Source: a virus (taxonomy: Duplodnaviria > Heunggongvirae > Uroviricota > Caudoviricetes). Taken from it: 64,000 nt of DNA. The notes under the pieces are model-generated. The model was not told the origin of the DNA. It made no database searches and saw only the letters and a program-made list of their open reading frames with translations. The DNA lies in the IMG/VR virus record IMGVR_UViG_2913167280_000003, positions 1 to 64,000 of that record; one strand, 5' to 3'. This document shows positions 57,997-58,500 of the stretch, piece by piece; position 1 is the stretch's first letter, and every line of letters starts with the position of its first letter. The position numbers and the translations under genes are program-made.

Positions 57997-58500
57997 GATG
58001 GTGTAGCTCAGCGGTTAGAGCGTCTGCCTTGTAAGCAGTGGGATACTGATGAAAATTTGTAGCAAATGCAAAGCACTAAAACCTGCTTCCGATTTCCATA
58101 AAAACAAAGGAAAGAGCGATGGCCTGCAAAATATTTGCAAGGTGTGCGCCAAGGAAAGAGATGCTCTGAGTTATGCAAGCAATGAATCAAGGCGCCGGCT
58201 TATAAAGTTAACAAGAACGAGAAAAACAAGCTCAAACCGTCAGTTTTTATCTCGTTATAAACGCTTCATCGGGTGCCAAAATTGTGGAGAAAAAGAACCT
58301 ATAGTTCTGGACCTCCACCATGATAACCCTGGCGGCAAAGAAGGCGATCCTTCTAACCTATGTAGTCGATCTCGAAAGCGACTTAAGGAAGAAGTAAGGA
58401 AGTGCATTGTCCTCTGTGCGAATTGCCACAGAAAAGTCCACGCAGGTTTATTGGATATAAAGAAATAGCTACGGCGGTTCAATTCCATCAACCATCACCA
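57997..58500 (+). tRNA. tRNA-Thr(UGU)-like gene, apparently split by a 433-bp insertion carrying an HNH endonuclease ORF
   Basis: 5' half 57997-58039: acceptor GATGGTG, TA, D arm GCTC-AGCGGTTA-GAGC, anticodon arm with loop CTTGTAA (anticodon TGT at 58030-58032). 3' half 58473-58500: T arm GGCGG-TTCAATT-CCATC, acceptor AACCATC (6/7 complementary to the 5' strand), discriminator A, encoded CCA. Confidence 0.45.
58049..58468 (+). CDS. HNH homing-endonuclease-like protein
   Basis: 139-aa ORF with CxxC pairs (CSKCKAL, CKVCAKE, CQNCGEKEP) and a C-terminal HNH box (LCANCHRKVH); sits between the two tRNA-like halves. Confidence 0.8.
   Translation: MKICSKCKALKPASDFHKNKGKSDGLQNICKVCAKERDALSYASNESRRRLIKLTRTRKTSSNRQFLSRYKRFIGCQNCGEKEPIVLDLHHDNPGGKEGDPSNLCSRSRKRLKEEVRKCIVLCANCHRKVHAGLLDIKK

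What the first reader, a model, noticed from the sequence alone, without database searches (positions are those of the whole stretch)
57997..58500. tRNA-Thr(UGU)-like gene split by an HNH endonuclease ORF
A convincing tRNA 5' half (acceptor strand, D arm, anticodon arm with U33 and anticodon UGU) ends at 58039. A matching 3' half (T arm, acceptor strand complementary at 6 of 7 positions, discriminator A, encoded CCA) starts at 58473. The intervening 433 bp is almost entirely a 139-aa HNH endonuclease ORF that starts 9 nt after the anticodon stem. The insert is too small to hold a standard group I ribozyme core as well as the ORF, so this is either a tRNA inactivated by a free-standing homing endonuclease insertion or an unusual intervening sequence in the variable-loop region.
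Basis: seen in the sequence. Interest (0 to 1): 0.75.

Follow-up and report, generated by a model that had tools for sequence, protein, structure and literature searches.

The report
Homing endonuclease gene splitting a phage tRNA
In this P1-like phage-plasmid a selfish HNH nuclease gene sits inside a threonine tRNA gene and has left it as two non-functional halves; the same cassette occurs in lambda-like prophages, so conserved tRNA sequence probably let it move between unrelated phages.

Summary
Window 57997-58039 is a tRNA 5' part (acceptor strand, D arm, UGU anticodon arm). 58473-58500 is a T arm, 3' acceptor strand, A73 and CCA. The 433 bp between them is a 139-aa HNH ORF (58049-58468).

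It is not a resident P1 tRNA-Thr hit in place. Nucleotides 1-26 are identical to P1 trnA (tRNA-Asn). The anticodon arm, the 3' half and about 50 bp of trailer are of a lambdoid-prophage tRNA-Thr(UGU) type. Four lambdoid-type loci carry an 86-87% identical HNH at the same variable-loop position, and Klebsiella phage 5 LV-2017 has the intact, HNH-free allele. The HNH is under purifying selection (dN/dS about 0.15). Its more distant relatives sit as free-standing genes in phage tRNA arrays such as Felix O1.

No ribozyme was detected, and only 13 nt of the insert are non-coding. The joined halves carry three stem mismatches and an A2-U71 pair. The lambdoid alleles have lost the anticodon-stem 3' strand.

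Best reading: a free-standing homing endonuclease gene embedded in, and inactivating, a tRNA-Thr gene, imported into the P1-like ban-operon leader by recombination through tRNA homology. It is a new variant of a known kind (compare T4 SegB and the T5 F-Tfl enzymes). Interest is moderate.

The parts
57311..57340 (+). C1-controlled operator/promoter of the ban operon (P1 Op72ab / P1ban equivalent). It is the likely source of the transcript that covers the split tRNA and the HNH gene.
   Evidence: ATTGCTCTAATAAATTTATTAGTGTAATAT is identical to the region P1 annotates as Obanab/P1ban. That it drives HNH expression is an inference.
57997..58022 (+). tRNA nt 1-26 (5' acceptor strand GATGGTG, U8 A9, D arm). 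Origin is tRNA-Asn (P1 trnA type).
   Evidence: 100% identical to P1 trnA nt 1-26. Megablast homology to P1, P7, SJ46 and D6 stops at 58022.
58023..58039 (+). Thr-type anticodon arm TCTGC-CTTGTAA-GCAGT (anticodon UGU; U27 and U43 do not pair).
   Evidence: Matches CCTGC-CTTGTAA-GCAGG of P1 trnT and of the Klebsiella phage 5 tRNA-Thr. It differs from the P1 trnA arm GTTGA-CTGTTAA-TCAAC.
58040..58048 (+). HNH leader GGGATACTG with a Shine-Dalgarno-like GGGA 5 nt before the ATG. GGAT corresponds to tRNA nt 42-45 (AGGAT, nt 41-45, in the lambdoid alleles).
   Evidence: GGATACTG-ATG is shared with all four lambdoid alleles, and AGGAT aligns to the intact tRNA.
58049..58468 (+). 139-aa HNH endonuclease ORF (free-standing homing endonuclease gene), stop codon included.
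   Evidence: ORF list. PHROG 2255 E 5.8e-39. Invariant C4, C7, C30, C33, C76, C79, H90, H91, C123, N125, C126, H127, H131. Profile hit to the LtrA En (HNH) domain, E 0.0015. dN/dS 0.14-0.16 against the lambdoid alleles.
58469..58472 (+). Spacer CTAC. The last C corresponds to tRNA nt 48.
   Evidence: AAATAG-CTAC followed by the T stem is identical in the window, L017, L018, L100 and L102.
58473..58500 (+). tRNA 3' part: T arm GGCGG-TTCAATT-CCATC, acceptor 3' strand AACCATC, A73, CCA.
   Evidence: 25 of 28 nt identical to the lambdoid-type tRNA-Thr. The three differences (A57, A63, U71) are all the nucleotide of P1 tRNA-Asn; P about 9e-4 if they were random substitutions.
58501..58544 (+). Trailer of the lambdoid-type tRNA-Thr (tataccaatgtgatgattctgccgg...), co-imported with the cassette.
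   Evidence: Shared with Klebsiella phage 5 LV-2017, L018 and L102. Absent from all HNH-less P1-like plasmids searched.
58545..58574 (+). Shared motif cctcgaaacggagtgcacaacagataaga: the probable right-hand crossover zone between the lambdoid-type donor and the P1-like recipient.
   Evidence: The motif is present both in donor-type trailers (L003, L102) and in P1-like plasmids (L006, L016). From here the window is collinear with the HNH-less same-backbone plasmid L016.

Best explanation
A free-standing HNH homing endonuclease gene is embedded in the variable loop of a phage tRNA-Thr(UGU) gene. The gene is left as two non-functional remnants that now act mainly as homology arms.

Shown:
- The same HNH-in-tRNA-Thr cassette, with an identical 3' junction, exists in lambdoid-type prophage loci.
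- An HNH-free intact allele of that locus exists.
- In the P1-like lineage the cassette is joined on the left to nt 1-26 of the resident tRNA-Asn gene, inside the conserved D arm. On the right it is joined within a repeated trailer motif. It replaces the rest of the tRNA cluster.

Inferred:
- The nuclease is made when the C1-repressed ban promoter (or, in lambdoids, the Q-dependent late transcript) fires.
- It nicks or cuts HNH-free tRNA-Thr alleles near the variable loop and T arm. Break repair then copies the HNH gene and its flanks. The carrier is immune because its own site is split by 433 bp.
- Because tRNA sequence is conserved between unrelated phages, the halves let the element cross from lambdoid prophages into a co-resident P1-like plasmid.
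- No mature tRNA-Thr is produced.
For: Anatomy. HNH identity.

Filled and empty alleles. Klebsiella phage 5 LV-2017 has an intact tRNA-Thr(UGU) downstream of the Q antiterminator. L017 has the same upstream flank with the HNH inserted between Q and holin. L018, L100 and L102 are further filled alleles. The alignment places the insert after nt 45 and before nt 48.

The ORF is maintained: dN/dS 0.14-0.16 at dS 0.44-0.49.

The family habit is free-standing genes inside phage tRNA arrays: Felix O1 ORF47 between tRNA-Gly and tRNA-Thr, ENT3 and DU_PP_I upstream of tRNA-Cys. In IMG/VR, 27 of 53 loci have a tRNA within 300 nt, and nearly all of the closest full-length relatives do.

No ribozyme: no group I or II hit at E<=10 in the window or L017, and none at gathering score in L017, L018 or L102. 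Only 13 nt of the insert are non-coding.

The tRNA is impaired. ARAGORN and Rfam do not call it. It has three stem non-pairs and a weak cloverleaf. A2-U71 replaces the C2-G71 pair known as an E. coli ThrRS identity element (established knowledge). The lambdoid alleles lack the anticodon-stem 3' strand.

Chimeric origin and import:
- Homology to P1 ends at 58022.
- The same-backbone HNH-less plasmid L016 carries Asn-Tyr-Thr.
- The Asn-type patches in the 3' half have P about 9e-4 of arising by chance.
- tRNA-tRNA recombination is seen independently at this hot spot (L004).

The promoter/operator is identical to P1 Pban/Op72.

Precedents: T4 SegB recognises a site containing the tRNA TpsiC motif and drives inheritance of the tRNA region (PMC2330249); T5 F-Tfl genes lie in the T5 tRNA cluster (cited in PMC2330249).
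Against: - Nuclease activity, target site and homing have not been shown for this protein or any close relative.
- Pfam HNH is below threshold (12 bits against 21.4).
- No HNH-free allele with exactly the window's chimeric sequence was found, so the P1-like insertion history is reconstructed, not observed.
- The insertion is not clean: nt 46-47 are lost and nt 39-43 altered. This fits illegitimate acquisition better than precise homing.
- Acceptor, D and T stems remain fully paired in three of the four lambdoid alleles (L018 has one T-stem mismatch and two G-U pairs). U71 in the window restores pairing with A2. Both could hint at residual function.
- ARAGORN with its intron option does call a tRNA-Thr.
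Confidence: 0.78

Rival explanations
1. The insert is an intervening sequence removed at the RNA level to give a working tRNA-Thr. One version: a 407-nt intron between nt 38 and 39, with a 3' exon starting at GCAGG (58442), yielding a 97-nt class-II-like tRNA with a 26-nt variable arm.
For: - ARAGORN with the intron option calls 57997-58500 as tRNA-Thr(tgt) with intron (39,407).
- The hypothetical A38|GCAGG join is called tRNA-Thr in all five alleles.
- GCAGG, 26 nt upstream of the T stem, is conserved in all alleles.
Against: - No group I or II model hit even at E<=10.
- The whole 'intron' is coding sequence, so there is no room for a roughly 200-nt ribozyme core.
- GCAGG is dictated by the conserved His-Ala-Gly codons of the HNH motif. 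It also occurs in ENT3, where the gene is not in a tRNA.
- The 5' exon would end in A, not the U required by group I chemistry.
- Bacterial tRNA-Thr are class I.
- The window allele has A2-U71 and T-stem and acceptor mismatches.
- ARAGORN picks different, nonsensical solutions (Trp, Gly) in the lambdoid alleles.
Confidence: 0.04
2. The tRNA halves are kept because they work as a tRNA scaffold for the HNH message. Acceptor, T and D elements pair across the ORF, so RNase P and 3' maturation enzymes excise and stabilise the HNH mRNA from the polycistronic tRNA precursor, or yield a two-piece tRNA.
For: - Acceptor, D and T stems are perfectly paired in three of the four lambdoid alleles, and the variation in the 5' halves is confined to the D loop and nt 38.
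- In the window, U71 pairs with the A2 of the Asn-type 5' strand.
- Both genomic contexts are tRNA-processing contexts.
Against: - The substitution rate in the halves is not lower than at third codon positions (6 of 67 against 19 of 139 variable sites, Fisher p = 0.37).
- U71 arrived together with two other Asn-type changes. One of them (A63) breaks a T-stem pair, which favours gene conversion over selection.
- The window allele has three stem non-pairs.
- L018 has decayed T-stem and acceptor pairs.
- No experimental data exist.
Confidence: 0.1
3. The HNH gene is a decaying passenger and the structure is merely a scar of tRNA-tRNA recombination in a rearrangement hot spot, with no current nuclease activity or mobility.
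For: - The region is a hot spot. Examples are the deletion hybrid in L004, the odd trnT-like gene in L005, and varied tRNA sets (Asn-Thr; Asn-Tyr-Thr; Arg-Tyr-Thr) among P1-like plasmids.
- An IS has truncated the HNH in L019.
- The cassette is rare: 7 of 532 matching P1-like plasmid records and 4 of 5,426 E. coli genomes.
Against: - The ORF is intact in every full-length allele, with dN/dS 0.14-0.16 over dS about 0.45, and all catalytic and zinc residues are invariant.
- The cassette occurs in at least four distinct genomic contexts with an identical junction, which implies repeated transfer.
Confidence: 0.08

Closest known systems
T4 SegB (GIY-YIG free-standing homing endonuclease in the T4 tRNA gene cluster; PMC2330249, PMC13096335)
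   Same: - It is a free-standing nuclease gene inside a phage tRNA cluster.
- Its recognition site includes the conserved tRNA TpsiC stem-loop motif.
- Homing co-converts the flanking tRNA genes.
- SegB homologs are significantly associated with tRNAs.
   Different: - It belongs to a different nuclease fold (GIY-YIG, not HNH).
- segB lies between intact tRNA genes, whereas here the gene sits inside a tRNA body and destroys it.
- T4 is virulent. Here the carriers are temperate (a P1-like plasmid prophage and lambdoid prophages), and transfer appears to cross phage families.
- Activity is demonstrated for SegB and not for this protein.
Phage T5 F-TflI/II/IV (H-N-H endonucleases encoded in the T5 tRNA gene region; cited in PMC2330249)
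   Same: HNH-type enzymes whose ORFs lie in a phage tRNA cluster.
   Different: They are intergenic ORFs. No homology to them was tested here. They are not reported to split a tRNA gene.
Felix O1 ORF47 / NP_944871 and Felixounavirus, Certrevirus and ENT3 homologs
   Same: - True homologs: 57-63% amino-acid identity over the full length.
- Same 137-139 aa architecture.
- Embedded in tRNA arrays. The Felix O1 copy ends 1 nt before tRNA-Thr(UGU).
   Different: There the neighbouring tRNAs are intact and the gene is intergenic. Here, and in the 86-87% identical lambdoid copies, it lies inside the tRNA.
Group I intron-interrupted bacterial tRNA genes carrying a homing endonuclease ORF (e.g. cyanobacterial tRNA-fMet intron with I-Ssp6803I; review PMC3984707)
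   Same: A tRNA gene interrupted by an insert that encodes a homing endonuclease.
   Different: - Those inserts contain a self-splicing ribozyme.
- They lie in the anticodon loop.
- They preserve tRNA function.
- Here no ribozyme is detectable, the insert is in the variable loop, tRNA nucleotides are lost, and the stems are damaged.
P1 trnA (tRNA-Asn) and trnT (tRNA-Thr) in the ban-operon leader (NC_005856 69348-69501)
   Same: Same genomic position downstream of dmt and Pban. Window nt 57997-58022 equal trnA nt 1-26. The anticodon arm resembles trnT.
   Different: P1 has two intact adjacent tRNA genes. The window has one chimeric, split, uncallable gene and lacks the remainder of the ban operon.

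Membership tests
Functional bacterial tRNA-Thr gene | Contiguous cloverleaf detected by tRNA finders or a covariance model | tested here: not met
   ARAGORN finds 0 genes in the window. Rfam RF00005 scores 25.2 bits, below the gathering score of 29, and only on the 5' two-thirds.
Functional bacterial tRNA-Thr gene | All four stems base-paired once the insert is removed | tested here: not met
   G7/A66, U27/U43 and C51/A63 do not pair. Cloverleaf energy is -17.7 against -26 to -29 kcal/mol for intact phage tRNA-Thr. ARAGORN still calls the join, but it is equally lenient on lambdoid alleles that lack the anticodon stem.
Functional bacterial tRNA-Thr gene | ThrRS identity set G1-C72, C2-G71, G35, U36 (established knowledge for E. 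coli) | tested here: not met
   G1-C72, G35 and U36 are present, but pair 2-71 is A-U. P1 trnT and the Klebsiella phage tRNA-Thr have C2-G71.
Group I (or II) intron in a tRNA gene | Ribozyme core recognisable by a covariance model | tested here: not met
   No intron family at E<=10 in window 57300-58700 or in L017 1250-1900, and none at gathering score in L017, L018 or L102.
Group I (or II) intron in a tRNA gene | Non-coding sequence sufficient for a catalytic core; insertion in the anticodon loop; U at the 5' splice site | tested here: not met
   420 of the 433 inserted nt are ORF. The junction maps to variable-loop nt 45/48. The only ARAGORN intron model has its 5' exon ending in A38.
Group I (or II) intron in a tRNA gene | Splicing in vivo or in vitro | not testable with these tools
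   Requires RT-PCR, northern blot or in vitro transcription.
HNH (beta-beta-alpha-Me) endonuclease | Catalytic His/Asn/His motif with flanking Cys pairs, conserved across homologs | tested here: met
   H90, H91, N125, H127, H131 and C76, C79, C123, C126 are invariant in 25 homologs.
HNH (beta-beta-alpha-Me) endonuclease | Significant match to curated family profiles | tested here: inconclusive
   - PHROG 2255 'HNH endonuclease', E 5.8e-39.
- Pfam PF01844 scores only 12 bits against a 21.4 cutoff.
- The family profile hits the LtrA En domain at E 0.0015 and McrA at E 0.059 in the PDB.
HNH (beta-beta-alpha-Me) endonuclease | Nuclease activity | not testable with these tools
   No biochemistry is available for this protein or for close relatives.
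Free-standing homing endonuclease gene | Presence/absence polymorphism at one locus with conserved flanks | tested here: met
   Klebsiella phage 5 LV-2017 (empty) against L017 (filled) share the upstream flank and the tRNA. L018 and L102 share the trailer.
Free-standing homing endonuclease gene | ORF not within an intron or intein, and maintained by selection | tested here: met
   No ribozyme. The ORF has its own start, Shine-Dalgarno sequence and stop. dN/dS is 0.14-0.16.
Free-standing homing endonuclease gene | Cleavage of the empty allele and super-Mendelian inheritance with co-conversion of flanks | not testable with these tools
   Only indirect evidence: donor-type flanks were co-imported into the P1-like backbone, and the 3' half has a mosaic of donor and resident nucleotides.

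The most novel reading that the evidence does not exclude
The tRNA halves are not inert scars but a natural tRNA scaffold. Pairing of the acceptor strands across the 433-nt insert, with intact D and T arms, lets RNase P and the 3'-end maturation enzymes carve the HNH message out of the tRNA-cluster precursor. This protects its ends and could even yield a two-piece or long-variable-arm tRNA-Thr. On this reading the nuclease gene exploits tRNA processing for its own expression.
Probability: 0.1. Interest if true: 0.72.

Novelty: new variant of a known kind. Interest (0 to 1): 0.45.

Why it matters
Free-standing homing endonuclease genes are known to live between phage tRNA genes. Here one sits inside a tRNA body with no intron to repair the damage, and it is found in two unrelated temperate phage families.

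If the reconstruction is right, three things follow:
- Accessory phage tRNA genes are expendable landing pads for selfish nucleases.
- The universal conservation of tRNA sequence gives portable homology arms. These let a nuclease cassette cross phage-family boundaries, even recombining with a non-cognate tRNA (Asn).
- Such events remodel the P1 ban-operon leader, which is a hot spot of tRNA-cluster turnover.

There is also a practical point. RefSeq annotates a spurious 99-nt 'tRNA-Thr' here and often leaves the HNH ORF unannotated, so this locus is a useful test case for annotation pipelines.

Tried and rejected
- **Contiguous tRNA or tmRNA detection.** ARAGORN found nothing in the window.
- **Group I/II intron search.** Rfam at a permissive E-value on the window and L017, and at gathering score on the lambdoid loci, gave no intron family.
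- **Search for an uninterrupted copy of the window's own chimeric tRNA.**
  - Exact-pattern scans of viral contigs returned only the two HNH-containing contigs.
  - blastn of the 3' half plus trailer against E. coli genomes and plasmids returned only the HNH carriers.
  - A genome-contig scan with the 5' junction pattern returned nothing.
- **ARAGORN on joined halves as a cloverleaf test.** It is positive for the window. It is also positive for lambdoid alleles that lack the anticodon-stem 3' strand, so I discount it as non-discriminating.
- **ARAGORN intron mode.** It gives a tRNA-Thr with a 407-nt 'intron'. I rejected this as an artefact because the 3' exon start GCAGG is fixed by His-Ala-Gly codons and no ribozyme exists.
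- **Rate test for constraint on the tRNA halves against third codon positions.** Not significant (p = 0.37), so it decides neither way.
- **Simple sigma-70 scan.** It found no promoter in 57250-59150, although the annotated P1 Pban/Op72 sequence is conserved. The scan is too strict to be informative here.
- **Literature searches.** I found no description of an HNH gene inside a tRNA body in P1-like or lambdoid phages.
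Full report
**Context.** The window is a P1-like (Punavirus) phage-plasmid.
- It carries the C4 antisense RNA with its a1/b1 targets, and a sok antitoxin.
- The 754-aa Dmt methyltransferase is at 55056-57320.
- Downstream of dmt the sequence is 91-97% identical to P1, P7, SJ46, RCS47 and D6, but only up to window 58022.
- In P1 this is the leader of the C1-repressed ban operon. It carries trnA (tRNA-Asn) and trnT (tRNA-Thr) back to back.
- The P1 operator/promoter sequence (Op72ab/P1ban) is identical in the window at 57311-57340.

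**Observation.**
- The tRNA 5' part is at 57997-58039: GATGGTG-TA-GCTC-AGCGGTTA-GAGC-G-TCTGC-CTTGTAA-GCAGT.
- It is followed by 9 nt, then a 139-aa ORF at 58049-58468, then CTAC.
- The 3' part is GGCGG-TTCAATT-CCATC-AACCATC-A-CCA, ending at 58500.
- ARAGORN finds no contiguous tRNA.
- Rfam tRNA reaches 25.2 bits on the 5' two-thirds, below the gathering score of 29.
- When the halves are joined in silico, ARAGORN calls tRNA-Thr(tgt) for 107 of 182 junction choices.
- The 76-nt product has one non-pair in each of three stems (G7/A66, U27/U43, C51/A63). Its cloverleaf energy is -17.7 kcal/mol, against -26.1 for P1 trnT and -29.4 for the Klebsiella phage tRNA-Thr.

**The ORF.**
- It matches PHROG 2255 'HNH endonuclease' at E 5.8e-39.
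- Pfam HNH is sub-threshold.
- In an alignment of 25 homologs the His-His, Asn and His residues and four Cys pairs are invariant.
- The family profile hits the HNH (En) domain of LtrA in the PDB at E 0.0015.

**What the halves are.** The 5' 26 nt are 100% identical to P1 trnA, a tRNA-Asn gene, and P1 homology ends there. The next 17 nt are a Thr-type anticodon arm.

The 3' half and about 50 nt of trailer are 85% identical to an intact tRNA-Thr(UGU) and its trailer in Klebsiella phage 5 LV-2017. That phage is a lambdoid in which the tRNA follows the late antiterminator gene.

The three positions where the window's 3' half differs from that lambdoid type (A57, A63, U71) all carry the nucleotide of P1 tRNA-Asn. 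The probability of this for random substitutions is about 9e-4. This points to patchy gene conversion between the two tRNA genes. So the split gene is an Asn/Thr chimera.

**Relatives of the cassette.** Closer homologs of the HNH (86-87% amino-acid identity) were found in the protein database, and their contigs were fetched.
- In L017 the gene lies between the Q antiterminator and the holin of a lambdoid prophage. It is inside the same tRNA-Thr as in Klebsiella phage 5, with the same upstream flank.
- L018, and two metagenome contigs L100 and L102, are further filled alleles.
- All share the 3' junction AAATAG-CTAC followed by the T stem, and the leader GGATACTG-ATG.

Nt 46-47 are lost.

In the four lambdoid alleles nt 39-40 are also replaced (TGACCT, TGGCCA or TTGACCA), so the anticodon stem is destroyed. 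The window instead retains GCAG followed by an extra TGG.

The window's ORF differs from the lambdoid copies by dS 0.44-0.49 with dN/dS 0.14-0.16. The nuclease has therefore been maintained by selection for a long time.

**Family habit.** More distant homologs (35-63% identity) are free-standing genes inside tRNA arrays of virulent phages.
- Felix O1 ORF47 lies between tRNA-Gly and tRNA-Thr(UGU). Its stop codon is 1 nt before the tRNA.
- The ENT3 and Pectobacterium DU_PP_I copies lie a few nt before tRNA-Cys.
- Of 53 IMG/VR loci, 27 have a tRNA within 300 nt. Nearly all of the closest full-length relatives do, on the same strand.
- tRNA-Thr(UGU) is the immediate downstream neighbour in 5 of 23 loci.
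- In those phages the neighbouring tRNAs are intact. Only the 86-100% subfamily sits inside a tRNA.

**How it reached the P1-like plasmid.** The arrangement is found in 7 complete plasmids of E. coli, E. fergusonii and Salmonella, and in 4 of 5,426 complete E. coli genomes. It is also in two IMG/VR contigs.

The HNH-less plasmid pRHB32-C05_4 (L016) has the same backbone on both sides but carries intact tRNA-Asn, tRNA-Tyr and tRNA-Thr plus several trailer modules. Relative to L016, window 58023 to about 58545 replaces roughly 690 bp.
- The left crossover is inside the D arm (GAGCG), which tRNA-Asn and tRNA-Thr share.
- The right crossover is in a motif (ccacgaaacggag.gcacaacag) present both in lambdoid tRNA trailers (L003, L102) and in P1-like modules.

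Relative to P1 itself, window 58023-60402 replaces P1 69374-73865. That segment holds the trnA 3' part, trnT, plp, upl, tciABC, trnI, ban and dbn.

Independent tRNA-tRNA recombination products occur at the same spot in E. albertii plasmids. One example is L004, where the trnA D loop is fused to the trnT T arm through the shared sequence tcagcggtt.

**Is it an intron?**
- No group I or II model matches at E<=10 in the window or L017. None matches at gathering score in L017, L018 or L102.
- Only 13 of the 433 inserted nt are non-coding.
- ARAGORN's intron mode does report a tRNA-Thr with a 407-nt 'intron' after nt 38 and a 3' exon beginning at GCAGG (58442). This gives a 26-nt variable arm, and the same hypothetical join is callable in all five alleles.
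- I regard this as an artefact for four reasons:
  - GCAGG is fixed by the conserved His-Ala-Gly codons of the HNH motif, and it is also present in ENT3, where no tRNA is split.
  - The 5' exon would end in A rather than U.
  - ARAGORN picks unrelated solutions (Trp, Gly) in the lambdoid loci.
  - ARAGORN also 'finds' tRNAs in arbitrary joins of alleles that lack the anticodon stem.

**Are the halves under constraint?** Among the four lambdoid alleles, 6 of 67 tRNA-derived positions vary against 19 of 139 third codon positions (Fisher p = 0.37). There is no evidence for constraint, but the test has little power.

**Mechanism.**

Shown:
- An intact, selected HNH gene inside a tRNA-Thr gene.
- Filled and empty alleles of that locus.
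- Identical junctions in several genomic contexts.
- A chimeric, damaged tRNA in the window.

Inferred:
- The nuclease is expressed with the tRNA-cluster transcript, from Pban after C1 derepression or from the Q-dependent late transcript in lambdoids.
- It cuts intact tRNA-Thr alleles near the variable loop and T arm.
- It is copied into them by break repair.
- The carrier is protected because its own site is split.

T4 SegB is the closest functional precedent. It is a free-standing endonuclease in a tRNA cluster whose 27-bp site includes the TpsiC motif, and it drives inheritance of the tRNA region (PMC2330249). SegB homologs are strongly tRNA-associated (PMC13096335). T5 F-Tfl genes also lie in a tRNA cluster (cited in PMC2330249).

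**Novelty and verdict.** The differences from the known cases are these:
- The gene is an HNH sitting inside the tRNA body, with loss of tRNA function.
- It occurs in temperate phages.
- It appears to have moved between lambdoid and P1-like genomes using tRNA sequence, even a non-cognate tRNA, as homology.

I found no published description of this arrangement.

It is a new variant of a known kind, of moderate interest.

Noticed in passing
window 57575-57624 (+), with 57495-57662 and a T-arm-like hairpin at about 57740-57756: The ban-operon leader contains GCA AAC GAU GAU CUG AUG AUG GUA GCG GCC UAA. This reads ANDDLMMVAA-stop, a reading frame like a tmRNA tag. Sub-threshold Rfam hits are tmRNA_permuted (24.1 bits, E 0.015) and beta_tmRNA (13.6 bits). 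P1 annotates only the adjacent stretch, as a 'dicF-like region'. ARAGORN calls no tmRNA.
   Followed up: partly
L005 (E. albertii pEA36_1, NZ_CP117591.1) 1097-1228: A trnT-like gene with intact acceptor stem, D arm, T arm and CCA. Its anticodon arm is replaced by about 75 nt (CGAGAGCCAAAGCATCG...GGCCAGAG). Neither ARAGORN nor Rfam tRNA at gathering score calls it. It could be a tRNA-like RNA or another kind of insertion.
   Followed up: no
window 58560-58650; also L001 3340-3420, L003 1590-1660, L006 1660-1760: Repeated structured 'modules' follow the tRNAs in P1-like plasmids and lambdoid tRNA trailers. A long-range stem CACAACAG.../...CCGTTGTG encloses T-arm-like hairpins (e.g. gtagagttcgactctctac and cgtgggctttttcccgcg). 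There is no Rfam match. They may be processing signals or tRNA-like relics, and they serve as recombination points.
   Followed up: partly
L004 (E. albertii pEA4_97, NZ_CP117679.1) 1017-1060: A deletion hybrid. The tRNA-Asn 5' acceptor strand and D-arm start are fused directly to the tRNA-Thr T arm through the shared 9-mer tcagcggtt. This is an independent example of tRNA-tRNA recombination at this locus.
   Followed up: yes
window 58023-60402: This lineage lacks P1 plp, upl, tciABC, trnI, ban (the DnaB-like helicase) and dbn. About 4.5 kb of P1 (69374-73865) is replaced by about 2.4 kb holding the HNH cassette plus three ORFs of unknown function: 58630-59088 (+), 59051-59761 (-) and 59815-60147 (-).
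   Followed up: partly
L007 (NZ_CP046005.1) 2978-3076, equal to window 58000-58098: RefSeq/PGAP annotates a 99-nt 'tRNA-Thr' that starts 3 nt inside the acceptor strand and ends inside the HNH ORF. The HNH ORF itself is unannotated in several records. This is probably an annotation artefact triggered by the 5' half.
   Followed up: partly
L019 (GCA_907172385.1 contig CAJSCP010000030.1) 1-260: In another P1-like element an IS-type transposase end abuts the HNH ORF. It deletes the ORF's 5' end and the tRNA 5' half. The database '134-aa' protein P0004 is a fusion artefact of this truncation.
   Followed up: partly
L013-L015 (E. coli P1-like plasmids, rep_cluster_1704): At the same position, other P1-like plasmids carry quite different tRNA sets. 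Arg(tct)-Tyr-Thr-Ser(tga)-Met(cat) begins with the same first nucleotides as trnA. The leader is therefore a general tRNA-cassette exchange site.
   Followed up: no
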